The notes beneath the pieces are model-generated. The model did not search any database, was not told the origin of the DNA, and saw nothing but the letters and a program-made list of their open reading frames with translations. Source: an uncultured Burkholderiales bacterium (GTDB lineage: Bacteria > Vulcanimicrobiota > Xenobia > Xenobiales > QWHO01). Taken from it: a DNA stretch of 64,000 bases. The first letter of the stretch is position 1; each line of letters starts with the position of its first letter. The position numbers and the translations under genes are program-made. Location: the NCBI GenBank assembly GCA_964471395.1, contig CAYYHB010000002.1, positions 15,313-79,312 of the forward strand. The letters run 5' to 3'. Positions 4,212-35,003 of this stretch are shown in pieces.

Positions 4212-5471
4212 ATGGCACTCGACGTAGCCCGCTATCCCGAGCCCCAGCTCAGCCCCAGGGTCAAGCCACGCCGCCCTCGGCCCGATCTGGCCCAGCCGGT
4301 GATCGTTTCGGCCGTGCGCACGCCCATCGGTCGCTTCCTGGGGGGATTGTCCGAGCTGACCGCCCCACGTCTGGGCTCGGTGGCCATTCAGGCGGCCCTG
4401 CAAAGAGCTGGTCTGGCGAGCGACCAGGTGGACGAGGTCATCATGGGCAACGTGCTGGGGGCCGGTGTGGGCCAGAACCCCGCTCGCCAGGCCACCATAC
4501 TGGCCGGGCTGGACAACTCCACCCCGGCCCTGACCATCAACAAAGTCTGCGCGTCAGGCCTGAAAGCCATCGTGCTGGCCTGCCAGGCCATCCGATGCGG
4601 GGATGCTGAGGTGGTGATCGCGGGTGGCATGGAGTCGATGTCCAGGTCTCCCTACCTGCTCGATCGGGCTCGCACTGGCTATCGGTTGGGGCACGGGCAA
4701 CTGCTCGACTCAATGGTCTGTGACGGCCTCTGGGACTGCTACTACGATTTTCACATGGGCAACACCGGCGAGCTGGTCGCGGAACGCTACCGGCTCAGCC
4801 GCGCCGAGCAGGACGAGTACGCCTACCACAGCCACCGCAAGGCGCTCGAGGCGCAGAAGGCTGGTCGCTTTGAGGCCGAGATTGTGCCAGTGGAGGTGCC
4901 AGGCAAGAAGGAGCCCACCCGGGTGGTGAACGACGAGTCGCCCCGACCTGATACCAGCCCGGAATCCCTGGCCAGGCTCAAACCGGCCTTCATGCAGGGA
5001 GGGACGGTGACGGCTGGCAACGCTCCTTCGGTCAACGACGGGGCGGCTGCGCTGGTGGTGATGGCCGAGAGCCGAGCTCAAGAGCTGGGCCTCAAGCCCC
5101 TGGCCCGGGTGCTCGATGCGTTTAGCTCGGGGGTGGATCCCGCCTGGGTCATGCTCACCCCGGTGCCCGCCGTGCGCGGTCTCTTGGGGCGCAACCCCGA
5201 ATGGAAGCTGGGCGACTTCGACCTGATCGAGCTGAACGAGGCGTTCTCGGTGCAGGCCCTGGCCGTACAGAAAGAGCTGAGCCTCGACCCCGTCCGAGTC
5301 AACGTGAATGGCGGCGCTGTGGCGCTGGGTCATCCCATCGGAGCCTCGGGTGCGCGCATCGTGGTCACCCTGCTGCACGCCCTGCAATCGCGCGGAGGCG
5401 GGCGGGGTCTGGCCACGCTCTGTCTTGGCGGCGGTAATGGCGTGGCGGTAGCTTTTGAAAGCTTGAGTTGA
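4212..5471 (+). CDS. acetyl-CoA C-acetyltransferase (thiolase II)
   Basis: [24 protein letters not shown] (active-site Cys), C-terminal [15 protein letters not shown] and [10 protein letters not shown] motifs; GGAAAGGA SD before ATG 4212. Confidence 0.85.
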
Positions 5472-6346
5472 AGGAACCGGGCACGGCGAGAAGAACTAAC
5501 CGCCGCGCCAAAGCCGTGTTCTTTAATCTCTTCAAGAAGCCGCCGCCCGACCCGGGGGACGAGCCGGAGCCCAGGGCTTCGGCTGATTTGAGTTGGGCTG
5601 GCGAAGTGACGCCTCCACCTCCACCCCCGACCGCCTCCTTACCACCTGCCACCCCCCCCGCGAGCCGCCATCGCACCCACCACCCCAATATTCCCGCTTT
5701 GCTGCGCGGCGGCCTGACGGTCAAGCTGGCCCCCGAGCGCCAGCCGGGCACACCCCGCACCTGGGATTCGCGCATCGCCCGCCTTGACCAGGAAGGCTTC
5801 TGGGTTACCCAGGAAAAGGACCCTGATTCCTATTTGGTCAAGGAGGGCGATACCATGACCGTGGTAGTCGTGGAGCAGGGCGAACGACACATCTTTGACT
5901 GCCCCGTGCTTCGCATCGAGCACACTCCCGGCAACAACCGCCCCAACGAAGTGCTGCTCGCCCCCCCGGTGCAACGAAACAAGGAGTTCTCCAGCAGTAC
6001 CGGCCAGGGTAAGCGCAAACACCTGCGAATTCAGGCTGATTTGCCCGGGGAGTGTCGTGAGGTGCGCCCCGACCACGAGCTTGGTCCACCGCTTGGCATC
6101 CACACCTTGAATGTCAGCTTGAGTGGTCTGGCTTTCACCTGTAACCGTAGCTTCGACGCCACTCGCGAGGTGGATATTCGCCTGCTGGCCTGGAAGTTTC
6201 CGCTGCACCTGCGGGCCACCGTGGTGCGCTCCACCCGTCAGCCTGACGGAACCTACCTGGTGGCCATCCACTTCCCGCCCGACATCTCGCCCATCACCCG
6301 CGATCTGATCTCCCAGTTCATCCTCGACAATCAGCGCTCACGCTGA
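5468..6346 (+). CDS. PilZ domain protein (putative c-di-GMP receptor) with Pro-rich N-terminal region
   Basis: RKHLRIQ (RxxxR) followed by NVSLSGLAF (D/NxSxxG) PilZ signature, second degenerate PilZ-like half upstream; ATGA overlap with thiolase stop. Confidence 0.6.
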
Positions 6347-7272: not shown

Positions 7273-8297
7273 GAATCACCGCTTCCACCCCTACCCGCAT
7301 CGATCTGGCCGGTGGCACGCTCGACCTCTATCCCCTGTTTTTGTTCGAGCCCCGCAGCCTTACCGTCAACGCTGGCATCAGCCTTCGCTCGCATGTGATC
7401 CTGGAAGAGCTTGGGGGCACGAAGGTGCGCATTCGCTCGCAAGACTTCGACCGCCAGGTCGAGGCTGATAGCCCGGCCCAGCTCGACCCTCGGGGAGAGC
7501 TTGGTTTTTTGGCGCTGGCCGTGCAGCACTACCTGCCCGAGGGCGGGGTGGCTGTGACCACGCGCAACACCGCTCCGCGCGGCTCGGGCCTGGGGGCTTC
7601 CTCCAGCCTCCTGATGGCCCTGTCAGCAGCGCTCTGCAAGAAGGCTGGTCGCGAGCTCTCCCGCGAGGAGATCATCCGCATTGGATCGGGCCTGGAGGCA
7701 CGGAGCCTGGGCATTCCCACCGGCCTGCAGGACTATTTCGGGGCCATGTTCGGCGGCTTTCAAGCCTTGCGCTTCGACGCCGAGGGCAGCCACCGCGAGA
7801 GCCTGGAGTTCTCCCCCGCTTTCCGGCAAGAGCTCGAGCAGGCGGTGGTGGTCTCGTTCACGGGAGTGAGCCATTTCTCGGGTACCTCCAATTGGAACAT
7901 GCTCAAACGCTACATCGAGAAAGAGGGCGATACCGTGGCCCGTATGCAGGCTATTGCCGAGACCGCCTGGGAGATGAAAGCAGCCCTGCAGGCTGAGGAC
8001 CTGGCCCGGGTGGCTCGCGCGCTGGGGCGTGAGTGGGACAATCGCAAGGGTTTGGCCGACGGGGTGACGACCACCGAGATCGACGCCATGATTGCGGTCG
8101 CTGCGCAGGCCGGGGCACTGGCTTCGAAGATCTGCGGGGCCGGTGGGGGAGGGTGCCTGCTGACGCTCGCTTCTCCCGCGTCGCGGTCGGCTGTGGCCCG
8201 GGCACTGGAAGGGGCGGGGGCGCAGGTGATGGATGTCAAGCTCGACCCGCAGGGGCTCATGCTGGAGACCGACGTCCCATCGCCTGCCCATGGCTGA
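7269..8297 (+). CDS. GHMP-family sugar kinase (heptose-7-P kinase / fucokinase-like)
   Basis: [21 protein letters not shown] motif II; ATGA overlap with hbd stop. Confidence 0.7.
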
Positions 8298-9093
8298 CGA
8301 AGTCGACGTCGAGCTCGACGAGCCCACCCTGGGCAACCGCAGTCTCTCAGTGGCCCTGGGGGTGCTGGTTGTGCTCTCTTTGCTGGTGTTGGGCTATTAC
8401 TACAGGCGTCCGGTCGACAGTGAGGCCGCCGTGCTGGTCTCGCCTTCCGCCAGCCCGATGGCCAGCCCCTCGCGACGCGAGCTACCGCCCGTGCCTGAGC
8501 CTACCGGAACGATTAAGGTCTATGTAGCGGGAGAGGTTCGCAAACCTGGAGTGGTGGCCTTGCCGGCCGGCAGTCGGGTGGAGGATGCTCTGGCCAAAGC
8601 CGGGGGGATGACCCCGCGGGCCGATCCGCTGGCCATCAACCTGGCCTCGCGGGTCAAGGATGAGCAGATGATCGTGGTGCCGGCACGGGGCCAGCTGGAA
8701 GCATCTCCGGTGGACGTGCATCCTTCGGCTACTCCCGACGAGCCTGCACCGGAGGCTCACGAACCCGAGCCGGAGGCCACGGAGTCGGCCGCCGAGCCGT
8801 CAGGCGAGCCCCCGTCCTCGCCCGGGCCGTCCGCGCCTGCGCCGGGCCCTCAGTCGCAGACCGACTGGAGTCAGTACATCAACCAGAAGCCCTCTGACAG
8901 CGTGGCCAGGGTCAGCCTGAACAAAGGTACCCGCGGCGAGCTTGAATCGGTGCCCGGCATCGGCCCGAGCTCGGCGGCGGCTATCCTGGAGTATCGCAAG
9001 AAGCAGCGCTTCACCTCGGTAGATGATCTGCTCAAAGTACCCGGGATCAAACAGAAGAAGCTCGAAGGGATCCGTCCCTACGTCGATCTCTAG
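8290..9093 (+). CDS. comEA: competence protein ComEA (membrane anchor + SLBB + helix-hairpin-helix DNA-binding domain)
   Basis: N-terminal TM, SLBB-like IKVYVAGEVRKPGVVALPAGSRVEDALAKAGG, C-terminal HhH GELESVPGIGPSSAAAILEYRKK...VDDLLKVPGI; start ATG 8290 overlaps upstream stop. Confidence 0.75.
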   Translation: MADEVDVELDEPTLGNRSLSVALGVLVVLSLLVLGYYYRRPVDSEAAVLVSPSASPMASPSRRELPPVPEPTGTIKVYVAGEVRKPGVVALPAGSRVEDALAKAGGMTPRADPLAINLASRVKDEQMIVVPARGQLEASPVDVHPSATPDEPAPEAHEPEPEATESAAEPSGEPPSSPGPSAPAPGPQSQTDWSQYINQKPSDSVARVSLNKGTRGELESVPGIGPSSAAAILEYRKKQRFTSVDDLLKVPGIKQKKLEGIRPYVDL

Positions 9094-14763: not shown

Positions 14764-16416
14764 ATGGCAAGACGAAGGGGCGTCGGCCTGGGTACCACCC
14801 TGATCGTGACCGCGATCGTGGCCCTGCTGGGTTTTGCCCTGGCCGGCGCCAGTGTGACCCACATCAACCTGATGACCCACACCGGCAACGCCTCGGTGGC
14901 CCTCGATCTGGCCCGCAGCTCGGTGCACGTGGCACTCGGGCACCTCTTTACCGATAAGGACTTCCTCCAGACGGTCACCGTCAATGGCCCGGGCGGAGCG
15001 GTCGGACAACTCACCTTCGACCCTGCTCAGGCGACCAACCTCGGGATTCCCCTCTCGGAGAACAATCTGACCGGAGGCAGCTCCAAGCTGGCCGCCGACA
15101 ACCAGATGGTGCCCGAGGAAGGGGCGTACCTGGTGGGAGTTGCCACCGTGCGCGGGGTAACCCGCCGGGTGAGGGCTATCGTGCACCTGCCTCCTTTTCC
15201 CTTTGCGGCGGCCTCGGACGGGCCTATCGTGTCTCCTGGGAGCCTGGTGGTGGGCTCGCTGCGGCCGGGGCAAGATCCCAACTCTCCCCCCATCCGCCTG
15301 CTGCCGGCCGACCTTCTGACCAATGACACCGGGCTGGCAGCCCTGACGTTGGGCCCGGCCACCACCGTGCGAGGCGACCTGCGCTCGGGGGGCGGGGTGA
15401 GCCTCGATCCGGGTGTGCAGGTCGGCGGTCGGGTGCTGACCAGCCAGGCCCCCCGGCTGGTGCCGCAAATGAGCGTGTCTGCTCTTGATCCCGACCAGCC
15501 AGCTCCCAACGGTCACCCGTTTCTGGCCCTCGAGCCTACCTACCCTGCTACGACCTTTACCGGAACCCTGCGGGGAACCGGCACGGTCACCGTCAACGGT
15601 CGGCTCAAGCTGGACCGGGCCCTGGTATACATCGATGGCGACCTGGAGATCAACGGGGGAGTGGATGGTACGGGTGTGCTGGTGACGACCGGCAACCTGA
15701 CGGTGAACGGCCAGGCCAGCGTCGTGGCTGACAGTCGGGTCGCCATGCTGAGCCAGGGAAAAATCACGCTGGCGGGCAACGGTCCGGCGGGCTCGAGCAT
15801 CAAGGGATTGGTTTATGCTGAGGGCGGAGTAGACGCAAAGCAGCTCAAGCTGCAGGGGGCCCTGGTGGCGCGCAACCAGCCTCCGGTTCAGTTGGACAGG
15901 GCTCGGGTGCTCAATGACGGAGGGTTGCTCCAGCCGCCCTTTAACACCCTTCCTCACAGCGAGCCCGAGCCGCAGGTTCGCTGGGTCGTGGGCTCAGGAA
16001 GTGAGCTCATGGGCGGCGAGCCCACCGCAGGATATCCGCCGACGACTCCCCCTGGAGCGTCCGATCCAACTCAGGTTTCCAAGAGCAAGATCGAGGTCAA
16101 GATCGGCCGAGACGGGAAAATCTCAGGCACGGTCACGACCTACGTCTGGACCTTCAATACGACAACGCAAACCTGGGACTTTACCCAGGAGGAGCCGGTG
16201 CAGTTCGATCCCGGTCGTCTGGTTGAGCTGGTGCCATTCGGCTACATCGCTCCGGGTGATCCTCGCCATGATCCTTCCAAAGACAACATTTTCAACCCCG
16301 AGTCCAGCGCGCCCCCGCCATCTGCATCCACCTATCCCCTGGTGCTCGACCCGGCGGAGCTTTTGCCCACCAAAGACCGGGCCCGCATTTTGCTATGGCG
16401 CGAGGGCGCTCAGTAG
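14764..16416 (+). CDS. TadE/TadG-like N-terminal domain membrane protein (putative pilus-associated surface protein)
   Basis: Start at MARRRGVGLGTTLIVTAIVALLGFALAGASV (Tad-like N-terminal TM, PF13400-like); large Gly/Thr/Val-rich extracellular region. Confidence 0.5.
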   Translation: MARRRGVGLGTTLIVTAIVALLGFALAGASVTHINLMTHTGNASVALDLARSSVHVALGHLFTDKDFLQTVTVNGPGGAVGQLTFDPAQATNLGIPLSENNLTGGSSKLAADNQMVPEEGAYLVGVATVRGVTRRVRAIVHLPPFPFAAASDGPIVSPGSLVVGSLRPGQDPNSPPIRLLPADLLTNDTGLAALTLGPATTVRGDLRSGGGVSLDPGVQVGGRVLTSQAPRLVPQMSVSALDPDQPAPNGHPFLALEPTYPATTFTGTLRGTGTVTVNGRLKLDRALVYIDGDLEINGGVDGTGVLVTTGNLTVNGQASVVADSRVAMLSQGKITLAGNGPAGSSIKGLVYAEGGVDAKQLKLQGALVARNQPPVQLDRARVLNDGGLLQPPFNTLPHSEPEPQVRWVVGSGSELMGGEPTAGYPPTTPPGASDPTQVSKSKIEVKIGRDGKISGTVTTYVWTFNTTTQTWDFTQEEPVQFDPGRLVELVPFGYIAPGDPRHDPSKDNIFNPESSAPPPSASTYPLVLDPAELLPTKDRARILLWREGAQ

Positions 16417-17129
16417 CGCACGTTACGCAGCATCAGGCGGCGGGTCAGCTCGAAGCTCTCTTCGCCGACCTTGAGGACCAGCTGAATGCGGGGCGGGTCC
16501 ACGCTCAGATCCACTGTGAAGGCCTCCACGTGGCCGGCCAGCACAGTTCCCCCCATGGCCAGGGTAGCAAGCTCGGTGGCGATAGGAGCCGCGGGCGGCG
16601 GGGGGTTGGGCTGCTCGAAGAAGGGCTCATCGGGCTGGGGCACTCGTCCCACCGAGGGCGGCTCGGGGGGCCACTGGCGGCGATAGAGCTTGCGCTCCAC
16701 CGGGTGGTAGCGGTAGAGAGCCAGGGTGGTGCTCCACTCCTGGCCACCAGTGCTGGTGACCGTGGTCAGCGGCTGGACGGATAGCAGGGTGGGGTCGCTG
16801 GCGGGGTTGGCAGGCGACACCAGGTTGATGCCCGTTCGGGGGGCGCCGGAGAGGTCGGCGGCCAGGCGGTCCATGGCCACTTGAGCCAGCTGTTGCAGCT
16901 CGATCTGGGTGGCTCCCCGGCGCGTCCCCCTGCCCATGGGCACCAGCACCTGGGCCAGAAGGGTGAGCAGGATGATCAAGAGGGCCATGGCCATCAACGT
17001 CTCGAGCAGACCAAAGGCTCGTCTAAGGCGCGCGCGGCGCTCTTCAGCACTGAGCGCGGGGCCGCTCAACAGATTGTCTAAAGGCCTGTGCGTTCTGACT
17101 CTGCACAGCGGGACTTTAGATGCGTACAT
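16410..17129 (-). CDS. pseudopilin (prepilin-type N-terminal cleavage/methylation domain, GspJ-like); true start uncertain
   Basis: RRA|FGLLETLMAMALLIILL class-III signal-like motif (E at +5); N-terminal 35 codons of longest ORF are encoded by repeat copy C. Confidence 0.55.
   Translation of the reverse strand: MYASKVPLCRVRTHRPLDNLLSGPALSAEERRARLRRAFGLLETLMAMALLIILLTLLAQVLVPMGRGTRRGATQIELQQLAQVAMDRLAADLSGAPRTGINLVSPANPASDPTLLSVQPLTTVTSTGGQEWSTTLALYRYHPVERKLYRRQWPPEPPSVGRVPQPDEPFFEQPNPPPPAAPIATELATLAMGGTVLAGHVEAFTVDLSVDPPRIQLVLKVGEESFELTRRLMLRNVRY
17025..17118 (+). repeat. copy C of double-hairpin intergenic repeat family (diverged, with compensatory stem changes)
   Basis: ...GCGCGGGGCCGCTCAACAGATTGTCTAAAGGCCTGTGCGTTCTGACTCTGCACAGCGGGACTTTAGA; stems TCTAAAG/CTTTAGA and CTGTGC/GCACAG maintained. 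Confidence 0.65.
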
Positions 17130-17511
17130 CGCAACGCACTGCCTCGCGCAAGATTTCCCGGGGCACCTGGTGATCCGTCCAGGTCACCCGGACCCTCACA
17201 CCCACCAGCAGGCCCGGATCCACCCCGACTCGGTTCACGGTGAAGAACTGAACTGAGGGCTGGAACATGGCTCCCCGTCCGGGCGCGGCTGGCAGGGCCT
17301 GGGCCGGCCCGGGCACCAGCTGGCTGAAGGGGCGCGTCAGCTGCTCCTCCAGGATCGAGTCAGCCAGGGCGTTGGCCTGGAGCCGCTGGCCCGAGACCCG
17401 CACGGCCGCCACCGAGGTGGGGTAGAGGTTGAAGATCAGCAGCACCACCAGGGTGAGGATGGCAAAGCACAGGATGGCTTCGGCCAGCGAGGCTCCGCGC
17501 CGCCGCCTCAC
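17116..17511 (-). CDS. pseudopilin (prepilin-type N-terminal cleavage/methylation domain)
   Basis: GTG start 17511 gives MRRRRG|ASLAEAILCFAILTLVVLLIF (G-1, E+5); GTGA overlap with upstream gene stop; only C-terminal third of track ORF 17116..18405 is real. Confidence 0.6.
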   Translation of the reverse strand: MRRRRGASLAEAILCFAILTLVVLLIFNLYPTSVAAVRVSGQRLQANALADSILEEQLTRPFSQLVPGPAQALPAAPGRGAMFQPSVQFFTVNRVGVDPGLLVGVRVRVTWTDHQVPREILREAVRCDVRI

Positions 17512-19082
17512 AGGGTCTGCACCAGCTTGACCATGGGCAGCAAGGTGGCCAGGGCCACGACCCCGGCCATCAGGCCCATGGCCAGCATCATCAGGGGCTC
17601 GAGGGCGGCGGCGGCCATCTCCATGGTGGCCTCCAGCTCGAGCTGGTAGAGCTTTGCCAGCCACTCCAGGGTGCCGGCCACGTGCCCCGACTCCTCGCCG
17701 GCGGTCACGGTGGAGAGAAAGGCGGTAGGGAAAAAGTCGGCCGCAGCCAGGCTCTGGTCGAGTCCGGCTCCCTCGCGCAGGGCGGCCACGCTGGCCTGGA
17801 GGCGCCCCTGAAGCACGGGAGAGCCGGCGGCGGCGCCCGCCTGGGGGACGGCCTCCAGGACGGACAGGCCGACCCGCAACTGCAAAGCCAGAGCCTGGGA
17901 AAACTGGGCCACCGCCACCAGGCGCCACAGGCGGCCGACCCGGGGAATCTCGAGCAAAATGCGGTCGAGCTGGTAGCGGCCTGTCTCGGTTTGCAGAAAA
18001 CGCCAGCCGAGGACCGAGAAGAAAGCCGCTCCGGCGCCCAGGGCGAGCAAGACGCGGCCGTCCGAGAGCGTGAACAGGGCTCTGGTGAGCCAGGGCAGCT
18101 CGCCCCCGATCTGGTCGAGCATCTTCAGCTGACCTTTGAGGAGGAAAGGCGGGGCGGCCAGGATCATGGCCATGCACAGCACGAACAGCACGGCCGGGTA
18201 AGTGAGGGCCGAGCGCAGCCGCAGCGTCAGCGCCCGGGCCCGCTCTTCGTGGTCGGCCAACCGGGCCAGCACCTCGACCAGGCTGCCGGTGGCCTCGCCC
18301 ACCTTGATCAGCTTCAGCTGAAAGTTGGTGAACGAAGGGGAGGCCTTCTGCATGGCCACCGACAGGGGTTTGCCCTGCTCCACCTCGGTCAGCATGCGCC
18401 GGCACACGGCGACCGCCGAAGGCTCGTCTCCCAGCACTGTCAGGGCTCGGGTCAGGGGCACGCCGGCCGCCAGCAGTACCGGTAGCGAGCGCATGAGCAC
18501 CACCAGCGAACGGTTGGAAAGGCGCAGGGCCCTGTCCGGAGCGGGCTTGCTGGCTGGCTCGGGCTGGTAGGACTTACGGGCCGAGGGCAGCGGCGGAGCA
18601 ATCGGGAGCGGAGGGAGGGGAACCAGCTCGGGCGTGGGAGGTCGCTCCAGCTGCCACAGCTTCTGCTCCAGGTCGCGGGCATGGCTGCAGACCTTCATCA
18701 GGTCGAGCGAGGAGAAGGCAACCGCCCTGGAGCAATGGTCGGCGTAGAGCACACCCCGCACGCGTCGCTCAGGGTCCTGCAAAGGCACGCACAGCACCGA
18801 GCGGATGCCGGTCAGGAGTACGCTGGAGTTGTCGGCGAACTCGGGATCCTCGCGCAGGTCACCCGAAAGTAGCGGCAGCCCCGAGTCGATCACCTGGTGC
18901 ACCAGGCCCAGGCTGACCGAGGCGCTCCACAGACCGCGCAGCCCCCGAGAGGCCTGCACCTGGAGCTCTCCTGTGCCGGTGCGGTCATAGAGGATCAGCA
19001 CCCGCTCGGCCTGCAGGCCGTCCAGCACCCGGAACGACTCCTGGAAGAGCCTGGCGATGCTGGAGTCGGTGAGGGTGCCCAT
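17508..19082 (-). CDS. GAF domain - type II secretion/type IV pilus platform protein (GspF/PilC) fusion
   Basis: N-terminal ~150 aa GAF-like fold; two T2SS-F domains (…LPVLLAAGVPLTRAL…IKVGEATGSL… and …LQLRVGLSVLEAV…TAGEESGHVAG…) with three TM regions. Confidence 0.65.
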   Translation of the reverse strand: MGTLTDSSIARLFQESFRVLDGLQAERVLILYDRTGTGELQVQASRGLRGLWSASVSLGLVHQVIDSGLPLLSGDLREDPEFADNSSVLLTGIRSVLCVPLQDPERRVRGVLYADHCSRAVAFSSLDLMKVCSHARDLEQKLWQLERPPTPELVPLPPLPIAPPLPSARKSYQPEPASKPAPDRALRLSNRSLVVLMRSLPVLLAAGVPLTRALTVLGDEPSAVAVCRRMLTEVEQGKPLSVAMQKASPSFTNFQLKLIKVGEATGSLVEVLARLADHEERARALTLRLRSALTYPAVLFVLCMAMILAAPPFLLKGQLKMLDQIGGELPWLTRALFTLSDGRVLLALGAGAAFFSVLGWRFLQTETGRYQLDRILLEIPRVGRLWRLVAVAQFSQALALQLRVGLSVLEAVPQAGAAAGSPVLQGRLQASVAALREGAGLDQSLAAADFFPTAFLSTVTAGEESGHVAGTLEWLAKLYQLELEATMEMAAAALEPLMMLAMGLMAGVVALATLLPMVKLVQTL

Positions 19083-20377
19083 CAGCCCCCCCAGCGACCC
19101 AGCGCGGCCACCAAATGCGCCCCGGCCTCCTCCACGCTGGCAAAGCGAGATTCGGGGGCTTTGGCCAGCATGCGCAGCAGGATCTGCTCCACCTCGGCCG
19201 GCAGGTCGGCGCGCAGACGCGAGGGCGGCTCGGGCTTCTCGCCCACATGTTGGAAGAGCACCTGAAGCGGATCGGGAGCCTGGAACGGCTGGCGGCCCGT
19301 CAACAGCTCGTAGGCCATCACGCCCAGGGCATACTGATCGATGGCCCTGTCATAGCTCACCCCCTGAATCTGCTCAGGGGCCATGTAAGCGGGAGTGCCG
19401 AGCACGGTACCGGTCTGGGTCAGGTTGGTGGAGTTGTCCGCCCGGCTGAGGCCAAAATCCATGACTTTGAGCTTACCCGAGGCTGTGAACATCACGTTCT
19501 CGGGCTTGAGGTCGCGGTGGACCACCCCGCGCGAATGGGCGTAGGCCAGGGCCTGGAAGAGTGGCAGGAGGACCTCGGCCGCCTGCTCCGGGGAAAGGCC
19601 CTCGCCTCTCAGCCGCTCGCGCAGGGTGCCGCCTTCCACTAGCTCCATGACCAGGTAGACCAGTCCGTGCTCCTCGCCCCAGTCGTAGAGGCGCACGATG
19701 TGGGGATGATCCATCTCCTTGCACAGGCGCACCTCGCGCTTGAAACGCTTGAACAGCTCGGGGTCGCCGCTCAGGGTGGCTTGGAGCACCTTGACGGCCA
19801 CCTCCTCGCTGCCCTTGCGGCCCCGGTAAACTCGGGCCATTCCGCCCGCTCCCAGCTCACCCAGCAAGTAGTAGCCGCCCAGCTCGGAGCCTTCCAGCAA
19901 GCCCCCACCGTCGGTCCGGGCCAGCAGGTCTTCCAGCCGACGGGCCCGGCGGTGACTGCGGGTGTGAAAGAGCACCATTCCTCCCGCTCCGATCAGGATC
20001 ACGGTGGCGAAAGCCAGCGGTGCTCTCAGGGCCGCCAGGTGAGCCGCCAGGCTGGCGGGCTTGAGGGTCGCGGGGGCCGGCTTGCCCCCGGCTCCCAGCG
20101 GCAGCTCGCGGGCCAGCTTGAGGCGCGACTCCTGGATGGCGAACGGCTCGACTGCGTAGCCGGGCAGGCTGAAGCTGAACTCGAGAGTCCGCTCGTCTTG
20201 TCCGGTCAGGGGAACGGCCAGCGGAGTGCCGCTCAGCCCCAGCGTGCGGGGGCCCAGCTTGACCACGGCTCCCTCGGGGCGGGTGTGGAAGGTCACTCGA
20301 TGCTCGCTCGGAGGCGGCTGGGCCGCAGCCAGCTGCGTCAGCAAGCAGAACGTGACCCCCAACAGCGCGCTTCTCAC
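19082..20377 (-). CDS. membrane Ser/Thr protein kinase with N-terminal signal/extracytoplasmic domain
   Basis: Hanks kinase motifs [36 protein letters not shown]; GTG start 20377 yields signal-like [20 protein letters not shown]; TM before kinase domain. Confidence 0.75.
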
Positions 20378-20417
20378 TCTTTGAAGCGAATTCGCGTTTG
20401 AAGCGGCACTTCCCCGC

Positions 20418-21626
20418 TCAGATCGACCTGAGCTCGTTCTCCAGGGCTTTCTGGCGAGCGCGGGCGGCCTCGATCTCGACCTTGGGCAGGCCCCCCATTT
20501 CGTAGAGCTCTTCCAGCTTCTTGAGGTGCTCGCGGCCATCGGTGACCTTCTTCTTGAGCTGGGTCAGCTTGGTGCTCTTGCCCTCGACGGCGTTCCTCTT
20601 GTAGTCGAGCACCTCTTCTTTGAGCTGGGGGCTCCTGGCCACCACCTTGTTGACCATTGCTTCAACGTTCTTCCAGCTCAGGCCCCGCGATCTGGCTTCC
20701 TGCTCGATGACGGTCAGACGATTGGCGGCCTGGTTGCGCTGGCCTTCCAGCATGGCCAGCGAGCGCTCATTGACAGCCAGCAAAGGGCCCACGTTCTTGG
20801 AACGCTTCTTGGCGTTGGCCAGCTCCTGGCGGGCCTGCTCGACTTCCTTGCGGGCCACCAGGCCCCTCTCGGCGTAATCTTGCATCTGCTTGACGGTTTT
20901 CTCGAGCTCGGGCACGCGGTTCTTGAGCGATTTCGCGTCCGCTTTCAGGCGGACCCGCTCCCACTTACGCATGGCCAGCTCGGAGTCAGATTCTTGCAAG
21001 GTGGCCTTGGCCACCAGCCAGGTGACCAGGAAAGACTCGGTGGAGTTGCTGGCCAGCCCGGCGAAGGGGCTGTTGGGGATGGTGGCCCCCTCTCCGAAAG
21101 GGATGTAGTTGCCGACCGCGTCGCGCATCTTGACATCCACGTGGTCGAGGGCGATGGTGCCGAGCACGTCGCCGGGAAGGATTTGCTGGCCCACCGAGAC
21201 GCTGGGGCTGAGGTGCCCGTAGGTCACTGTCCAACCGGTGGGCATCTGCACCGTCACCCCGTACTGGGGACCGTACCAGTGGGCGATGGAGATGACCGTG
21301 CCGGCCCAGCCAGCGGCGCAGGGGGTGCCGAAGGGCATGGCGATATCGTAGCCCAGGTGCAGTCCGGCGTTGCGTCGGTAAACCGAGACTGTGCGCCAGT
21401 CGTAGAAGGTGCTGCTGACAAAGGCGCTGGGGAAGTAGCGCTGCTGGAAGGCCACCAGCTCGCCCAGGCCCTTGACATCCCCTCTGGCCCGCCGGCTGTC
21501 GATGATGCCATAGTCGTCCCTGAGCTTCTCGACCACCGCCGGAACGCTGGTGGAAGAAGGCGTCTCGGGCTGCTGGGCCGCTGCGGTCACGGTCAACAAC
21601 AGACCGGCAAGCAAAATCCTTCGCAT
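20418..21626 (-). CDS. M23-family metallopeptidase (LytM domain) with C-terminal coiled coil
   Basis: GLHLGYDIAMPFGTP...HWYG..VTVQMPTGWTVTYGHL (HxxxD / HxH); signal peptide MRRILLAGLLLTVTAAAQ; GGAGGA SD before ATG 21626. Confidence 0.75.
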   Translation of the reverse strand: MRRILLAGLLLTVTAAAQQPETPSSTSVPAVVEKLRDDYGIIDSRRARGDVKGLGELVAFQQRYFPSAFVSSTFYDWRTVSVYRRNAGLHLGYDIAMPFGTPCAAGWAGTVISIAHWYGPQYGVTVQMPTGWTVTYGHLSPSVSVGQQILPGDVLGTIALDHVDVKMRDAVGNYIPFGEGATIPNSPFAGLASNSTESFLVTWLVAKATLQESDSELAMRKWERVRLKADAKSLKNRVPELEKTVKQMQDYAERGLVARKEVEQARQELANAKKRSKNVGPLLAVNERSLAMLEGQRNQAANRLTVIEQEARSRGLSWKNVEAMVNKVVARSPQLKEEVLDYKRNAVEGKSTKLTQLKKKVTDGREHLKKLEELYEMGGLPKVEIEAARARQKALENELRSI

Positions 21627-21742: not shown

Positions 21743-21817
21743 TCCGGAGTAGCTCAGTGGTAGAGCAACCGGCTGTTAACCGGTTGGCCGTAGGTTCGAA
21801 CCCTACCTCCGGAGCCA
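21743..21817 (+). tRNA. tRNA-Asn (anticodon GTT)
   Basis: Cloverleaf: acceptor TCCGGAG/CTCCGGA, D-arm GCTCAGTGGTAGAGC, anticodon loop CTGTTAA, T-arm GTAGGTTCGAACCCTAC, 3' GCCA. Confidence 0.9.
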
Positions 21818-21820
21818 GCG

Positions 21821-21856
21821 AAAAGGCCCCCGCCAGATGACGGGGGCCATTTTCAT
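21821..21856 (+). terminator. rho-independent terminator after tRNA-Asn
   Basis: GGCCCCCG-ccagatga-CGGGGGCC hairpin followed by ATTTTCAT. Confidence 0.6.
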
Positions 21857-32614: not shown

Positions 32615-32870
32615 AGAAGAGGAAGAATGCTGGCCATTCTCCCCCGACGGATAGGTTCGGGATCTGCTGGGAACCTCCCTGCCACTACGCTACTCCAAAC
32701 ATAAGGCTGATCGCAACCCGTTCGCCGGGTCCTTCCCCCGCCCCCCTGTTTGACCGAGGGCGCCTCTCCCCCTTCCTTGGCCCGACAAGAAGTAGGCAAG
32801 AACCTGTTACCGGGCTGGAAGGAGAGGGCGAGGGAGGACTCAACGCTCAAGATCAGAACATGGCGCCGCC

Positions 32871-34928
32871 ATGGCTGGCGAAAACCAGGAGCCGCGCCGT
32901 CTGGGCGGTCGATATGAAGTTCTGGCCCCGCTCGGCGAGGGCGGGATGTCTCAGGTCTTTCGTGGTCGCGATCTCAAGCTTGGACGCGAGGTCGCCATCA
33001 AGATTCCCCGCCCTGAGATCGCTCGCGACCAGGATGCGCGCCTGCGTTTTGTTCGCGAGGGGAAAAGCGCCGCCAAGCTCAATCATCCCAACATCGTCCA
33101 GGTTTATGACTCCTCTGATGAGCCCGATGAGCCGTTTCTGATCATGGAGCTGGTGCCGGGCGAGGATCTGCGCCAGCGTCTGCAGCGCGGCCCACTTCCG
33201 CACTCTCAGGCAGTGGCTATGATGGTTCAGGTCCTGTCGGCACTCGAATGTGCCCATGCCAACGGGGTGGTGCATCGCGATCTGTCGGCCCGCAACGTTT
33301 TGCTCGATGCCCAGGGCTCGGCCCGCGTCTCGGACTTCGGCGTGGCCCAGGCCCTGGGAGACCAAACCCTGACCAGGACAGGAGAAATGCTCGGCTCGGT
33401 CAGTTACATGTCTCCCGAGCAAGCTCAGGGAAAGGACTCAGGCCCACCCACGGACATCTATGCGGCCGGCGTACTGCTCTTCGAGATGCTGACTGGCCGG
33501 CTCCCCTTCACTGGCGATACTCCGGTGCAGGTGGCCCTCAAGCATATTCAGGAGAGCCCGCCCAGCGCCTCGCAGATCAACCCGGCTGTGCCCCCCGGGC
33601 TCGACCAGGTGATCTTGCAGGCCCTGGCCAAGCGCCCCGAAGATCGCTTCGGCTCGGCCAGCGAGATGGCTCGCGCTCTCCAAGAAGGCTCGGCTCCCGT
33701 TCCCGGGCCGATCCTCGAGCACACGCGGGTGCGACAGCCTGCCGTCCGCCCCCCGGTGGAGCCCAGGGCGTCTGCCCCTTCGCGCGCTCCCTACATTTTC
33801 GGTGTTCTGGCCTTGCTGGCGGTGGTATCGGTGCTGGTCGGAATGCTGCTCATGCCCCCTCCCAGCGTGGTGGTGCCCGATCTGGTCGGACTCGAGCTCA
33901 AGGCCGCGCGCCAGAAGGCTGAGGCCCTGGGCTTGCGATTGGAGGTGTCCGAGCGTCGCCCTGATACCGCGGCGGAGAAGGATACCGTGCTCGAGCAGGA
34001 TCCGACCCCCGGCGAGTTGCGCAAGCAAGGCGACTTCGTGCGAGTGGTGGTGAGTCAGGCTCCCGAGAAGGTGGCCGTGCCCGACCTTTTGGGCAAGACC
34101 GAGCCCCAGGCGGTGGAAACCCTGGAGTCACTCGGTTTTCGCGTTTTGCTCGAGCGTGAGGAGAGCGCGACCGTGCCGGGGGGGCGGGTGATTCGCCACG
34201 ACCCGTTAGCCGGGGAAGAGCTCCCTCGGGGCGGTCAGGTCAAGGTTTTCATTTCGACCGGAGCAGCCAAAACGGCCATCCCCAACCTGGTGGGCATGAG
34301 TCGCCAGGAGGCTGAGGCTCTCCTCAAGAGCCTGGAGATGACGTTGGTCGTGGGCGGGACCCGTCAGGATGCCAGCGCCCCCGAAGAGACGATCTTGGAG
34401 CAGCTCCCGTCGCCCGGAACGCTGGCCGTGAAGGGTCGTAAGGTTTCGGTGATCCTCTCGGCCGGGTCGCTTGGAATGACTGCGCCCGATCTGGAGGGAA
34501 AGTCGCTCAAGGAGGCCGAGGAGATCGCGCGAAGGTCGGGTCTCAAGCTGGTCGTGGAGGGTCCGAGCAGTCCCCAGGACTCGGTGGTCTTCCAGGATCC
34601 GCTGCCCGGCGACCCGATCAAAGGGAGCACGGTGACGGTGAAGACCAACCCCAGCGTGGTGGTGCCCAATCTCAGCGGTCTGGGCGAGGACGATGCTCGC
34701 AATCAGCTAGAGGAATTGGGCCTGAAGGTGGGGGACACCCGCCGCATCAATTCGGCTGCCCCCGAGGGCGAAGTGGTTGGACAGGAGCCCGACTCGGGCA
34801 TGGAAGTGTCGCCGGGCACGCCCGTTCACCTCTACGTGTCCGACCCGAGCGCTCCGCTGCCTACTCCCGACCCTGTTCTGACACCAGTCGAGCCGTCCTC
34901 GCCCGCGCCGCCATGGGTTCCTCGGTGA
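32871..34928 (+). CDS. Ser/Thr protein kinase with TM and five extracellular PASTA domains (PknB/PrkC-like)
   Basis: Hanks motifs (GEGGMSQVF, VAIK, HRDLSARNVLL, DFGVA, SPEQ); TM; repeated VPDLVG...A...L...GL PASTA units. Confidence 0.85.
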   Translation: MAGENQEPRRLGGRYEVLAPLGEGGMSQVFRGRDLKLGREVAIKIPRPEIARDQDARLRFVREGKSAAKLNHPNIVQVYDSSDEPDEPFLIMELVPGEDLRQRLQRGPLPHSQAVAMMVQVLSALECAHANGVVHRDLSARNVLLDAQGSARVSDFGVAQALGDQTLTRTGEMLGSVSYMSPEQAQGKDSGPPTDIYAAGVLLFEMLTGRLPFTGDTPVQVALKHIQESPPSASQINPAVPPGLDQVILQALAKRPEDRFGSASEMARALQEGSAPVPGPILEHTRVRQPAVRPPVEPRASAPSRAPYIFGVLALLAVVSVLVGMLLMPPPSVVVPDLVGLELKAARQKAEALGLRLEVSERRPDTAAEKDTVLEQDPTPGELRKQGDFVRVVVSQAPEKVAVPDLLGKTEPQAVETLESLGFRVLLEREESATVPGGRVIRHDPLAGEELPRGGQVKVFISTGAAKTAIPNLVGMSRQEAEALLKSLEMTLVVGGTRQDASAPEETILEQLPSPGTLAVKGRKVSVILSAGSLGMTAPDLEGKSLKEAEEIARRSGLKLVVEGPSSPQDSVVFQDPLPGDPIKGSTVTVKTNPSVVVPNLSGLGEDDARNQLEELGLKVGDTRRINSAAPEGEVVGQEPDSGMEVSPGTPVHLYVSDPSAPLPTPDPVLTPVEPSSPAPPWVPR

Positions 34929-35003
34929 GGAAAATTCAAAGAGTCTGCCAGGAGACCGTATCAGCAGGAAGAATGTCCTTTTGTAGTTGCTTGAACCGGA
35001 GGA

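What the first reader, a model, noticed from the sequence alone, without database searches (positions are those of the whole stretch)
16410..21626. Atypical pilus/T2SS-like operon: M23 peptidase - membrane Ser/Thr kinase - GAF::GspF fusion - two pseudopilins, facing a TadG-like gene; no secretion ATPase in window
The minus-strand genes are tightly coupled (TGATG and GTGA start/stop overlaps) and look like one operon. It combines a Hanks kinase that has an extracytoplasmic domain with a platform protein whose cytoplasmic N-terminal domain is replaced or augmented by a GAF small-molecule sensor domain, followed by two prepilin-motif proteins. A convergent TadE/G-like protein lies at 14764-16416. 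In canonical T2SS/T4P loci no GAF domain or eukaryotic-like kinase is embedded next to the platform protein. This suggests a signalling-regulated filament or secretion module whose GspE/PilB ATPase is either elsewhere or not needed.
Basis: partly seen in the sequence, partly recalled or inferred. Interest (0 to 1): 0.65.

Follow-up and report, generated by a model that had tools for sequence, protein, structure and literature searches.

The report
Kinase-linked pilus-platform gene cassette
Uncultured Xenobia bacteria carry several copies of a conserved five-gene cassette that joins a pilus/secretion "platform" membrane protein, usually fused to a GAF sensor domain, to its own receptor-type Ser/Thr kinase and three pilin-like proteins; the motor ATPase such machines need is never nearby, which suggests an undescribed, signal-gated way of starting type IV filaments.

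Summary
Window 16410-21626 (-) encodes an M23 peptidase, a membrane Hanks kinase, a GAF::GspF/PilC platform fusion and two prepilin-like proteins, with TGATG and GTGA overlaps. A convergent 550-aa gene lies at 14764-16416 (+). Pfam and a confident AlphaFold model (Foldseek hits to about 40 GAF crystal structures and to PilC) confirm the GAF fold.

It has five genes: kinase, platform, a small E5 pilin, a medium E5 pilin, and the large convergent protein. That large protein is a third, GspK/ComZ-like pilin without E5, not TadG. All five occur in each of 18 complete related modules despite permuted gene order, and no sixth gene is conserved. M23 is specific to one paralogue clade.

Single MAGs of class Candidatus Xenobia (Vulcanimicrobiota/Eremiobacterota) hold 3-6 paralogous modules. 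The five protein trees share the same clades, so modules duplicated as whole units.

No GspE/PilB ATPase, prepilin peptidase or secretin was found in about 570 kb of module-bearing DNA, and positive controls worked.

Best reading: signal-gated "initiation cassettes" (platform plus priming pilins) of a type IV filament system that use a motor encoded elsewhere. This is a new variant of a known kind, and its function is inferred.

The parts
19082..20377 (-). Receptor-type Hanks Ser/Thr kinase (core gene 1). Signal peptide aa 1-20; ectodomain aa ~21-116 (nt 20030-20317) with a TDPPGAxV...GY, PEGA-like motif; TM aa ~117-137 (nt 19967-20029); kinase domain aa 171-417 (nt 19127-19867).
   Evidence: Pkinase 194.5 bits. 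All catalytic motifs are invariant in 13 homologues: K196, E215, HRDLKPxN, DFG, GTPxYMxPE. Pfam PEGA matches only 3 of 13 members, best E 0.074. The stop codon overlaps the platform start (TGATG). An alternative TTG start at 20362 was used by the public gene call.
17508..19082 (-). GAF::GspF/PilC platform fusion (core gene 2). GAF aa 1-146 (nt 18645-19082); disordered Pro-rich linker aa 147-189 (nt 18516-18644); platform with two T2SSF repeats aa 190-524 (nt 17511-18515).
   Evidence: Pfam GAF 39.4 bits and T2SSF 129.6 bits. NCBIfam GspF positions 57-400 of 401 and PilC 66-404 of 406. AlphaFold pLDDT 84.6. Foldseek finds PilC of 3jc8 at E 1.6e-9 and about 40 GAF structures at TM 0.55-0.70. Y295-P296 and E495-P496 are invariant and align with E. 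coli GspF Y166-P167 and E368-P369.
17116..17511 (-). ps1: small prepilin-like protein, 131 aa (core gene 3). Leader MRRRRG, then ASLAE with Glu at +5. GspI-like in size.
   Evidence: The GTG start overlaps the platform stop (GTGA). E11 is invariant in 13 homologues. Only weak HMM hints, all below cut-off: XpsI 19.4 bits, GspI 14.4, Verru_Chthon B 15.3, N_methyl 15.0.
16410..17129 (-). ps2: medium prepilin-like protein (core gene 4). Up to 239 aa from ATG 17129, and the mature part is about 200 aa. Cleavage motif RRA|FGLLE with Glu at +5. GspJ/ComGE-like in size.
   Evidence: The [GA]|[FYHL][STG]L[ILV]E motif and the E are invariant in 13 homologues. ComGE 23.6 bits and Verru_Chthon C 22.0 bits are both below cut-off. 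The start codon is ambiguous.
14764..16416 (+). 'big': large pilin-like protein, 550 aa, convergent (core gene 5). Leader MARRRG|VGLGT with no Glu5; long N-terminal helix; beta-solenoid aa ~145-385 (nt 15196-15918); hypervariable region aa ~386-520; conserved C-terminal motif DPxxLLPxxDRARxxxWxE.
   Evidence: Present in every complete module. The AlphaFold model has low overall confidence (pLDDT 56), but the solenoid scores 75-87. Top Foldseek hit is the Thermus competence pilin ComZ, 6qvi_B, E 3.7e-4, but TM is only 0.2. No Pfam or NCBIfam hit. The family has 630 cluster representatives at E<=1e-30; all 10 sampled carried no informative name.
20418..21626 (-). M23 (LytM-type) peptidase with signal peptide and C-terminal coiled coil. 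First gene of the operon in this window, but an accessory specific to one clade.
   Evidence: Peptidase_M23 39.7 bits. Homologues are found only in L001, L008 and L009. HxxxD is present, and the HxH position reads H-V-D. It lies 40 nt upstream of the kinase with no terminator between them.
21825..21848 (.). GC-rich bidirectional terminator-like hairpin that bounds the operon on its upstream side, next to tRNA-Asn (21743-21817, +).

Best explanation
The locus is one copy of a multi-copy five-gene 'initiation cassette' of the type IV filament (T2SS/T4P) superfamily, so far seen in Candidatus Xenobia and related metagenomic lineages.

Each cassette encodes an inner-membrane assembly platform (GspF/PilC family). 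It also encodes the three pilin-like proteins that would form its tip or priming complex: a small and a medium Glu5 pilin, and a large Glu5-less capping pilin with a beta-solenoid and a hypervariable region. These are analogous to GspI-GspJ-GspK or PilV-PilW-PilX/ComZ.

The fifth gene is a cognate receptor-type Ser/Thr kinase. Its ectodomain faces the same compartment as the pilin heads, and its kinase domain faces the platform's cytoplasmic GAF domain.

Inferred mechanism: the kinase, possibly together with a ligand bound by GAF, switches its own platform on or off. An active platform recruits the assembly ATPase and uses the prepilin peptidase and probably the major pilin, all encoded elsewhere in the genome. 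The cell can therefore build alternative filaments or endopili with different tips from a shared motor.

What is shown: gene identities, domain folds, intact catalytic and channel residues, conservation of exactly five genes, several copies per genome, duplication as whole units, and absence of a linked ATPase, peptidase or secretin.

What is inferred: assembly into a filament, use of a trans-encoded motor, the kinase-to-platform signalling step, and the biological output (adhesion, motility, secretion or DNA uptake).
For: Domain identities.

GAF fold and PilC-like core.

Functional platform. Both T2SSF repeats are present. The TMS1 Tyr-Pro and TMS3 Glu-Pro residues, described as channel-lining in PulF (PMC10790770), are invariant here. 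The Cyto1 and Cyto2 domains, which that paper models as the ATPase-binding surfaces, are retained. Only the mobile N-domain (Pfam T2SSF_N) is exchanged for GAF plus a disordered linker.

Active kinase: all catalytic motifs are invariant.

Class III signal-peptide motifs: Glu5 is invariant in ps1 and ps2 and absent in 'big'.

Module content. All five genes occur in 18 complete, distinct modules with four different gene orders, and in 3 more modules cut by contig ends. An all-against-all clustering of flanks finds no sixth conserved gene.

Copy number. Six modules lie on contigs of one MAG with similar coverage (4.8-5.3x), and three in Xenobia AMX-MBFR-33.

Co-duplication. The five protein trees recover the same six clades, and their distance matrices correlate at r = 0.84-0.95.

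Precedent. Alternative minor-pilin sets prime distinct filaments on one machine in Synechocystis (bioRxiv 10.64898/2026.02.12.705559). Type IV pili exist in the phylum (V. alpinus, PMC9758169).
Against: - No ATPase, prepilin peptidase, secretin, alignment proteins or obvious major pilin has been shown in any Xenobia genome, because whole genomes could not be searched here.
- Pilin assignments rest on N-terminal motifs. The globular parts match no known pilin by sequence, and HMM scores are below cut-offs.
- The ComZ fold match comes from a low-confidence model (pLDDT 56, TM 0.2).
- No phosphatase, FHA protein or phospho-acceptor site is conserved with the module, so the kinase's target is unknown.
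- GAF is missing from some paralogues (L018, L020, L029), so it cannot be essential to the mechanism.
- Tree congruence would also arise from simple linkage.
- MAG binning could inflate the copy number.
Confidence: 0.5

Rival explanations
1. A motor-less trans-envelope sensing device. The platform (a putative ion channel), the three membrane-anchored pilin-like proteins and the receptor kinase form a static or proton-motive-force-driven complex. This complex senses surface contact or an extracellular ligand and signals by phosphorylation, without any GspE/PilB ATPase and without polymerising a filament.
For: No ATPase is linked in about 570 kb of module-bearing DNA. No major-pilin-like gene sits in the module. 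The kinase is invariably present and co-diverges with the other four proteins. PulF-type platforms are proposed to be ion channels (PMC10790770). The cyanobacterial survey reports pilin-like proteins fused to Ser/Thr kinase domains and suggests that they act as regulators.
Against: The Cyto1 and Cyto2 domains that bind the ATPase in canonical systems are fully retained. ps1 and ps2 keep Glu5, a residue whose known role is subunit-to-subunit contact in a growing filament (introduction; own knowledge). No type IV filament platform is known to work without the ATPase. The kinase ectodomain shows no detectable similarity to the pilins (hhalign).
Confidence: 0.12
2. The cassettes are T2SS-like or competence-type endopilus modules, each with one dedicated output: secretion of specific substrates, or DNA uptake as with ComG/ComZ. 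They would not be alternative tips for surface pili.
For: The best NCBIfam match of the platform is GspF (202.8 bits, against 185.4 for Thermus PilC). ps1 gives weak XpsI/GspI hits and ps2 weak ComGE hits. The best fold hit of 'big' is the DNA-binding competence pilin ComZ. A ComEA-like gene lies 6 kb away in this window.
Against: All these scores are far below family cut-offs. ComEA is not conserved next to other modules. Three to six paralogues with hypervariable large subunits fit a single function such as DNA uptake poorly. No secretin or GspC/L/M was found.
Confidence: 0.2
3. An ordinary T4P/T2SS locus fragment, or a decaying remnant. The ATPase lies just outside the window, or the genes are no longer functional.
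For: The window alone cannot exclude a neighbouring ATPase.
Against: The 17 loci compared in the flank clustering, with up to 10 kb of flank on each side and drawn from 10 clades, have no ATPase. Positive controls worked: E. coli GspE detects the L030 ATPases at 2e-72 and 3e-37, and GspO detects the A24 peptidase at 5e-10. All five proteins keep intact motifs, and paralogue clades are conserved across genomes.
Confidence: 0.03
4. An anti-phage defence system built around a PD-T4-6-like Ser/Thr kinase.
For: The kinase domain matches PADLOC PD-T4-6 models at up to 304 bits.
Against: The match covers only the generic kinase domain (aa 166-426). No other module protein matches any PADLOC model at a meaningful score. 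The partners are secretion or pilus components.
Confidence: 0.02

Closest known systems
T2SS inner-membrane platform GspF with the GspI-GspJ-GspK pseudopilus tip complex (e.g. E. coli gspF/I/J/K, Klebsiella PulF)
   Same: The platform has two T2SSF repeats and conserved TMS1 Tyr-Pro and TMS3 Glu-Pro. It is followed by a small and a medium Glu5 pilin and accompanied by a larger Glu5-less pilin. Sizes and order resemble I-J-K (E. coli 125, 195 and 327 aa).
   Different: No GspE, D, C, L, M, G, H or O is linked. The large subunit is 510-630 aa with a beta-solenoid. The platform N-domain is replaced by GAF. A cognate receptor kinase is part of the unit. There are 3-6 copies per genome. Pilin HMM scores are below family cut-offs.
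Alternative minor-pilin (priming-complex) gene sets of type IVa pili, as described for Synechocystis (bioRxiv 10.64898/2026.02.12.705559). From my own knowledge, also the three minor-pilin/PilY1 clusters of Myxococcus xanthus.
   Same: Several paralogous sets of tip or priming pilins in one genome, each thought to start a functionally distinct filament.
   Different: In those systems a single PilC platform serves all sets, and no kinase is encoded with them. Here each set has its own platform and its own kinase.
ComZ, the large competence-associated minor pilin of Thermus thermophilus (PDB 6QVI)
   Same: About 550 aa, with a pilin-type N-terminal helix followed by a large beta-solenoid. It is the best Foldseek hit for 'big' (E 3.7e-4).
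   Different: No sequence similarity. TM-score is only about 0.2, from a low-confidence model. The genomic context differs.
Verru_Chthon cassette proteins B and C (TIGR02598, TIGR02599): multi-copy cassettes of prepilin-like proteins in Verrucomicrobia (description from my own knowledge of the TIGRFAMs entries)
   Same: Repeated cassettes of pilin-like proteins. ps1 and ps2 give weak hits (15.3 and 22.0 bits).
   Different: Scores are far below cut-offs (51.4 and 256.5). As far as I know, those cassettes include neither a platform nor a kinase.
Regulation of type IV filaments by Hanks-type kinases or second-messenger sensors. From my own knowledge: ArnC/ArnD and the Sulfolobus archaellum, SpkA and Synechocystis motility, and c-di-GMP binding by the MshE N-domain, FimX and PilZ.
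   Same: Eukaryote-like Ser/Thr phosphorylation or small-molecule sensing controls filament assembly.
   Different: Known regulators act on transcription factors or on the ATPase, and are not encoded one-to-one with a platform. I found no report of a GAF domain fused to the platform itself.

Membership tests
GspF/PilC platform proteins (Pfam T2SSF, PF00482) | Two T2SSF repeats, each a cytoplasmic helical domain plus transmembrane segment(s) | tested here: met
   T2SSF 129.6 bits in two stretches. GspF model positions 57-400 of 401. All-helical AlphaFold core, with the PilC chain of 3jc8 as top fold hit.
GspF/PilC platform proteins (Pfam T2SSF, PF00482) | Conserved channel-lining residues: Tyr in TMS1 and Glu-Pro in TMS3 (PulF Y168, E370-P371) | tested here: met
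   Y295-P296 and E495-P496 are invariant in 23 family members. They align with E. coli GspF Y166-P167 and E368-P369. The residues are described in PMC10790770.
GspF/PilC platform proteins (Pfam T2SSF, PF00482) | N-terminal T2SSF_N domain (PF28597) | tested here: not met
   The precomputed Pfam lists show PF28597 in canonical PilC hits but in none of the GAF-fused proteins. GAF plus a linker occupies this position.
GspF/PilC platform proteins (Pfam T2SSF, PF00482) | Works with a GspE/PilB-family hexameric ATPase, usually encoded next to it | tested here: not met
   No GspE-family hit in the window or in any flank, about 570 kb in total. Whether one exists elsewhere in the genome could not be tested.
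GAF domain (PF01590) | Sequence match above the curated threshold, and the GAF alpha/beta fold | tested here: met
   39.4 bits against a cut-off of 22.4. pLDDT is about 85-90 over aa 10-146. About 40 GAF crystal structures match at TM 0.55-0.70.
GAF domain (PF01590) | A defined ligand (cNMP, haem, bilin and others) | not testable with these tools
   Read directly, there is no NKFDE-type cNMP motif. Structural neighbours bind different ligands.
Hanks-type Ser/Thr protein kinases (PF00069) | Catalytic motifs: Gly-rich loop, VAIK Lys, alphaC Glu, HRDLKxxN, DFG, APE | tested here: met
   194.5 bits. All motifs are invariant in 13 homologues.
Type IV pilins / pseudopilins (class III signal peptide, PF07963 N_methyl) | Short basic leader, Gly/Ala at -1, hydrophobic alpha1N helix, Glu at +5 | tested here: met
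   ps1 reads RRG|xSLxE and ps2 reads RR[GA]|[FYHL][STG]L[ILV]E, with Glu5 invariant. 'big' reads RRG|VGLGT and lacks Glu5, as GspK and PilX do.
Type IV pilins / pseudopilins (class III signal peptide, PF07963 N_methyl) | HMM score at or above the curated cut-off | tested here: not met
   N_methyl scores 15.0 and 13.8 bits against a cut-off of 21.2. 'big' has no hit.
Type IV pilins / pseudopilins (class III signal peptide, PF07963 N_methyl) | Cleavage and N-methylation by a prepilin peptidase, and incorporation into a filament | not testable with these tools
   No A24 peptidase in the window or the loci. This needs biochemistry.
Complete type II secretion system (Gsp) | Secretin GspD, ATPase GspE, GspC/L/M, major pseudopilin GspG and prepilin peptidase GspO in the system | tested here: not met
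   phmmer with all E. coli Gsp proteins hit only GspF, plus marginal N-terminal pilin hits. This was tested in cis only.
   No Pfam or NCBIfam hit of any Tad family at E<=1. The platform is the two-repeat GspF/PilC type.
ComZ-like large minor pilins | Pilin fold with an inserted beta-solenoid, and pairing with a partner minor pilin | tested here: inconclusive
   Top Foldseek hit is 6qvi_B at E 3.7e-4 and probability 0.97, but TM is 0.2 and the model's pLDDT is 56. No sequence similarity.
Peptidase M23 (LytM) | HxxxD and HxH metal-binding and catalytic motifs | tested here: inconclusive
   Pfam 39.7 bits, but only profile positions 3-72 of 96 are matched. HLGYD is present. The HxH position reads H-V-D.
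PEGA domain (PF08308), for the kinase ectodomain | HMM match | tested here: inconclusive
   Only 3 of 13 family members match, best E 0.074. The 'DPPGAxV ... GY' motif is visible in the alignment.

The most novel reading that the evidence does not exclude
The cassettes are complete in themselves. On this reading a GspF-type platform, which may be an ion channel, together with a cognate receptor Ser/Thr kinase extends, retracts or repositions a three-pilin stub without any GspE/PilB ATPase. That would be a motor-less, phosphorylation- and ion-gradient-driven branch of the type IV filament superfamily, used for surface or ligand sensing.
Probability: 0.07. Interest if true: 0.9.

Novelty: new variant of a known kind. 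Interest (0 to 1): 0.6.

Why it matters
[quoted passage not shown] How they are regulated, and how they recognise the priming pilins, are to my knowledge open questions.

This family has three useful properties:
- It fuses a sensor domain directly to the platform.
- It pairs every platform with its own receptor kinase.
- It supplies several co-diverging platform, pilin and kinase sets within single genomes. That is a natural data set for mapping platform-pilin and kinase-platform interfaces by covariation, and for testing specificity by swapping components.

It also gives five-gene units in an almost uncharacterised bacterial class a working role. The large-subunit family alone has at least 630 sequence clusters, none with a domain annotation. 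If the motor-less reading were true, it would overturn the assumption that every type IV filament machine needs a GspE/PilB ATPase.

Tried and rejected
1. Adjacent ATPase. I searched six-frame translations of the window and 28 loci (about 570 kb) with E. coli GspC-O, and with a PilT-like ATPase, a PilB fragment and an A24 peptidase from L030. Only GspF-type hits and marginal pilin N-termini came back. Positive controls worked.
2. A sixth conserved gene such as a phosphatase, FHA protein, PilZ protein or ATPase. All-against-all clustering of flanks found only the five families plus antisense shadow ORFs. The PilZ (L020), FHA-cyclase (L029), SpoIIE (L002) and CHAT (L002, L027) neighbours are sporadic.
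3. TadG identity of the convergent gene: no HMM support.
4. Sequence homology of 'big', ps1 and ps2 to solved structures. Only a bactofilin-like repeat (E 0.024) and N-terminal helices of Thermus and Geobacter pilins (E 0.09-0.5) matched.
5. Kinase ectodomain as a pilin-like head: hhalign probability below 1%. The PEGA assignment is inconclusive.
6. Defence system: only a generic kinase-domain match to PD-T4-6.
7. Riboswitch or other RNA element: Rfam found only tRNA-Asn and an unrelated group II intron motif.
8. The word-index protein search with 'big', alone and as a profile, returned only 6 proteins. The exhaustive HMM search was needed.
10. Literature searches for Eremiobacterota/Xenobia pili, GAF-PilC, T2SSF+GAF, and kinase plus platform plus minor pilins found no description of this module.

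Full report
**1. What is at the coordinates**

The window is GC-rich (about 64%). On the minus strand between 21626 and 16410 five genes follow one another.

- M23 peptidase, 20418-21626, 402 aa. Peptidase_M23 scores 39.7 bits against a cut-off of 28.7. It has an N-terminal signal peptide and a long C-terminal coiled coil.
- Hanks kinase, 19082-20377 with a GTG start, 431 aa. Pkinase scores 194.5 bits.
- A 524-aa protein, 17508-19082. GAF scores 39.4 bits (cut-off 22.4) at aa 21-129, followed by two T2SSF repeats (129.6 bits).
- A 131-aa protein, 17116-17511, beginning MRRRRG|ASLAE.
- A protein of up to 239 aa, 16410-17129, containing RRA|FGLLE followed by a hydrophobic helix.

The kinase stop and platform start share TGATG. 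The platform stop and the next start share GTGA. The last gene's ATG overlaps its predecessor by 14 nt.

A 550-aa gene on the plus strand (14764-16416) converges on the operon, and its stop codon overlaps that of the last gene. A strong bidirectional hairpin (21825-21848) and tRNA-Asn (21743-21817) bound the operon upstream.

**2. The individual proteins**

*Platform.* The C-terminal 335 aa match GspF over model positions 57-400 of 401 and Thermus PilC over 66-404 of 406. Both repeats are complete, and only the first ~60 residues of a canonical platform are missing.

Canonical PilC proteins in the database carry Pfam PF28597 (T2SSF_N) there, and the GAF-fused proteins do not.

An AlphaFold model built on 23 homologues is confident (mean pLDDT 84.6). 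It shows an alpha/beta GAF domain (aa 1-146), a disordered Pro-rich linker (147-189) and an all-helical core. Foldseek against the PDB returns the PilC chain of the Myxococcus T4aP machine model first (E 1.6e-9). About 40 GAF domain structures follow at TM 0.55-0.70, including DosS GAF-A, cyanobacteriochromes, cAMP-bound Lcd1 and PDE2/5/10.

The PulF study (PMC10790770) describes the platform N-domain as a mobile appendage on a flexible loop. It models Cyto1 and Cyto2 as the ATPase-binding surfaces, and Y168 (TMS1) and E370-P371 (TMS3) as lining a channel. In this family Y295-P296 and E495-P496 are invariant. They align with E. coli GspF Y166-P167 and E368-P369.

The protein therefore looks like a working platform whose mobile N-domain has been exchanged for a sensor domain.

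*Kinase.* It has a signal peptide and an ectodomain of about 95 aa. A single TM (aa ~117-137) follows, then a basic stretch ([10 protein letters not shown]), then the catalytic domain. This gives a type I receptor-like topology (N-out, C-in), read from the sequence and the positive-inside rule.

All catalytic motifs are invariant in 13 homologues. The ectodomain carries a conserved 'DPPGAxV...GY' signature reminiscent of PEGA. Pfam PEGA matches only 3 of 13 members, best E 0.074, so this is inconclusive.

*Pilin-like proteins.* Alignments of 13 homologues each show the following:
- ps1: M-(R/K)n-G|x-S/T-L-x-E.
- ps2: RR[GA]|[FYHL][STG]L[ILV]E.
- Glu at +5 is invariant in both, and about 20 hydrophobic residues follow.

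HMM scores are sub-threshold: N_methyl 15.0 and 13.8 bits; XpsI 19.4, GspI 14.4, ComGE 23.6, and Verru_Chthon B and C 15.3 and 22.0. The globular parts match nothing in the PDB by sequence.

*The convergent 550-aa protein ('big').* It begins MARRRG|VGLGTTLIVTAIVALLGFALAG. This is the same kind of leader and hydrophobic helix, but with Thr/Ser/Asn instead of Glu at +5 in all 15 homologues. Lack of Glu5 is the hallmark of the distal capping subunits GspK and PilX (E. coli GspK N-terminus).

Its AlphaFold model is weak overall (pLDDT 56, from 7 sequences). It shows a long N-terminal helix (aa 9-63) and a better-defined beta-solenoid (aa ~145-385, pLDDT 75-87).

The top PDB fold hit is ComZ, the ~550-aa competence-associated minor pilin of Thermus (6qvi_B, E 3.7e-4, probability 0.97, TM only 0.2). 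Beta-helical ice-binding proteins follow. There is no TadE/TadG or any other HMM hit.

The family alignment shows three zones: a conserved N-terminal half, a hypervariable segment (aa ~386-520), and a conserved C-terminal motif DPxxLLPxxDRARxxxWxE.

**3. The conserved unit and its distribution**

The exact platform protein occurs on an 8-kb NCBI contig. Homologues with GAF+T2SSF form about 20 clusters, and the only named ones are 'Candidatus Eremiobacterota'.

The scans of one genome per GTDB species and of JGI metagenomes, both restricted to a single conserved peptide pattern, returned 12 and 4 loci. The closest (94%) is from 'Candidatus Xenobia bacterium AMX-MBFR-33'. Xenobia is a class of Vulcanimicrobiota, also called Eremiobacterota.

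I searched the window's proteins against six-frame translations of every locus. Kinase, platform, ps1, ps2 and 'big' are present in every locus long enough to hold them. That gives 18 complete, distinct modules and 3 cut by contig ends.

M23 is found only in L001, L008 and L009, the orthologous clade.

Gene order varies:
- Kin-F-I-J with K convergent (window type).
- Kin-F-K-I-J (L022, L027, L028).
- F-K-I-J-Kin (L020).
- K-I-J-Kin with F convergent (L029).
- Kinase moved behind K (L010).

Some paralogues lack GAF (L018, 384 aa; L020, 407 aa; L029, 345 aa). An all-against-all comparison of the flanks of 17 loci from 10 clades finds exactly these five families shared by all. Nothing else is shared except antisense shadow ORFs.

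One MAG (JBDHVW01) carries six modules on contigs of similar coverage (4.8-5.3x). Xenobia AMX-MBFR-33 carries three. Assemblies JAANMT and JAANMU carry three and four, although these may be less clean bins.

Neighbour-joining trees of the five proteins recover the same six clades, and most clades contain a member from JBDHVW01. Pairwise distance matrices correlate at r = 0.84-0.95. The modules therefore duplicated as whole units long ago and have diverged without exchanging parts.

An exhaustive profile search with 'big' finds 630 cluster representatives (50% identity) at E<=1e-30 and 892 at E<=1e-10. The ten sampled carry no informative name (nine unnamed, one called 'hypothetical protein'). 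The family is therefore sizeable and unannotated.

**4. What is missing**

I ran phmmer with E. coli GspC, D, E, G-M and O, and with a PilT-like ATPase, a PilB fragment and an A24 peptidase from an unrelated canonical locus (L030). Nothing turned up in the 64-kb window or in any locus, about 570 kb in all including some redundancy. The only exceptions were marginal hits to pilin N-termini.

The controls worked. E. coli GspE detects the L030 ATPases at 2e-72 and 3e-37, and GspO detects the L030 peptidase at 5e-10.

I could not test whether these genomes encode an ATPase elsewhere. The only cultured member of the phylum, from a different class, has type IV pili and pilMDTC genes (PMC9758169).

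**5. How it most likely works**

*Shown:*
- A complete, apparently functional platform.
- An apparently active receptor kinase.
- Three proteins with class III signal-peptide-type N-termini, in the size and Glu5 pattern of the I-J-K (or V-W-X) tip complex.
- Strict five-gene conservation, several copies per genome, and co-divergence.
- No linked motor.

*Inferred:* Each cassette is an 'initiation unit', that is, a platform plus its cognate priming complex. The Glu5-less, hypervariable large subunit would sit at the tip. The cassette would borrow the assembly ATPase, the prepilin peptidase and probably a major pilin from elsewhere. Precedent exists in Synechocystis, where alternative core minor-pilin sets prime morphologically and functionally distinct filaments on one machine (bioRxiv 10.64898/2026.02.12.705559).

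The new elements are that every set has a private platform and a private kinase. The platform carries a GAF domain where the mobile N-domain normally sits, tethered by a disordered linker next to the ATPase-binding Cyto domains. I therefore propose that kinase input, and possibly a GAF ligand, gates which platform engages the motor.

The target of the kinase is unknown, and no phosphatase or FHA partner is conserved. GAF is absent from some paralogues, so the kinase rather than GAF is the constant regulatory element.

I put about 0.5 on this whole picture. Confidence in the component identities is much higher, at about 0.9.

**6. Rivals**

- A motor-less sensing complex fits the missing ATPase and missing major pilin. 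It conflicts with the retained ATPase-binding domains and the invariant Glu5 (about 0.12).
- Dedicated endopilus modules for secretion or DNA uptake are compatible with the weak GspF, GspI, ComGE and ComZ leanings and with a ComEA-like gene 6 kb away. They fit 3-6 diverged copies poorly (about 0.2). This rival is largely a question of output rather than mechanism.
- An ordinary locus fragment or a relic is contradicted by the survey (about 0.03).
- The PADLOC PD-T4-6 hits are generic kinase-domain matches.

**7. Comparison with known systems, and novelty**

The parts belong to known families: T2SSF, GAF, Pkinase and type IV pilin-like proteins. The module is not a member of any described system type. 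It fails the T2SS, T4aP, Com and Tad definitions because it lacks the ATPase, secretin or alignment proteins, and major pilin in cis.

I found no description of a GAF-platform fusion, or of a platform-kinase-pilin cassette, in the searchable literature. That is absence of evidence within a limited library. I rate it a new variant of a known kind.

**8. Limits**

- Everything comes from MAGs and metagenomes.
- Copy number depends on binning.
- The pilin assignments rest on N-terminal motifs.
- The ComZ similarity rests on a low-confidence model.
- No experiment or whole-genome census was possible.
- Two fold libraries were unavailable.

Noticed in passing
window 8230-9093 (+) and 5459-6346 (+): A ComEA-like gene (SLBB + HHH_3 domains, the competence DNA receptor architecture) lies about 6 kb from the cassette, and a PilZ-domain protein about 8 kb away. 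Neither is conserved next to other cassettes.
   Followed up: partly
window 32796-34928 (+) and 34995-36056 (+): A canonical PknB-type kinase with five PASTA repeats, followed by a separate PASTA-only protein. It shows that the genome also has the usual N-in/C-out kinase topology, the opposite of the cassette kinase.
   Followed up: no
window 51624-51699 (+): Rfam Group II intron motif (RF00029) just above threshold, 41.7 bits against 40. It lies at the start of a transglutaminase-like ORF. No reverse-transcriptase ORF was noticed nearby.
   Followed up: no
window 61880-64000 (+): A three-domain LigD (3'-phosphoesterase, ATP-dependent ligase, primase-polymerase), i.e. an NHEJ ligase, runs off the window end.
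   Followed up: no
window 20418-21626 (-), aa ~155-175: The M23 domain keeps HxxxD (HLGYD) but has H-V-D where HxH is expected. The Pfam match stops at profile position 72 of 96. It may be a non-canonical or regulatory LytM factor, and it carries a ~200-aa coiled coil.
   Followed up: partly
window 16410-16416; also L002 12523-12526, L005 5242-5245, L009 12520-12526, L010 12508-12511, L013 12571-12574: The stop codons of ps2 and of the convergent 'big' gene overlap by 4-7 nt in many paralogues. The two transcripts must therefore overlap, and there is no room for a terminator. More distant modules have 'big' on the same strand instead.
   Followed up: partly
L016 8082-10334 (+); L017 12496-15545 (-); L027 12823-17099: Structural variants of the cassette. 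In L016 a 750-aa unknown ORF is inserted between the platform and ps1. L017 has two tandem 'big' genes. In L027 a second, kinase-less mini-module lies next to the five-gene module: a K-like protein of 635 aa, a T2SSF protein of 349 aa, a canonical pilin of 151 aa and a GspJ-like protein of 252 aa.
   Followed up: partly
L029 6466-7743 (-); L020 15671-17062 (-); L002 16736-17746 (-): Signalling genes occur sporadically near individual cassettes: an FHA + nucleotide cyclase protein, a PilZ protein and a SpoIIE/PP2C phosphatase. None is conserved across cassettes.
   Followed up: partly
L011 and L019 (contigs CAZWUN010000273 and CAZWUN010000344): A MAG labelled 'uncultured Burkholderiales bacterium' carries two Xenobia-type cassettes at 43-52% identity to the window platform. 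The label or the binning is probably wrong.
   Followed up: no
L026 12909-14666 (-), variable region of 'big': The hypervariable segment of this paralogue is a long run of Thr/Gly repeats (GGTTTGG...), unlike any other paralogue. It may be a glycosylated or extended spacer.
   Followed up: no
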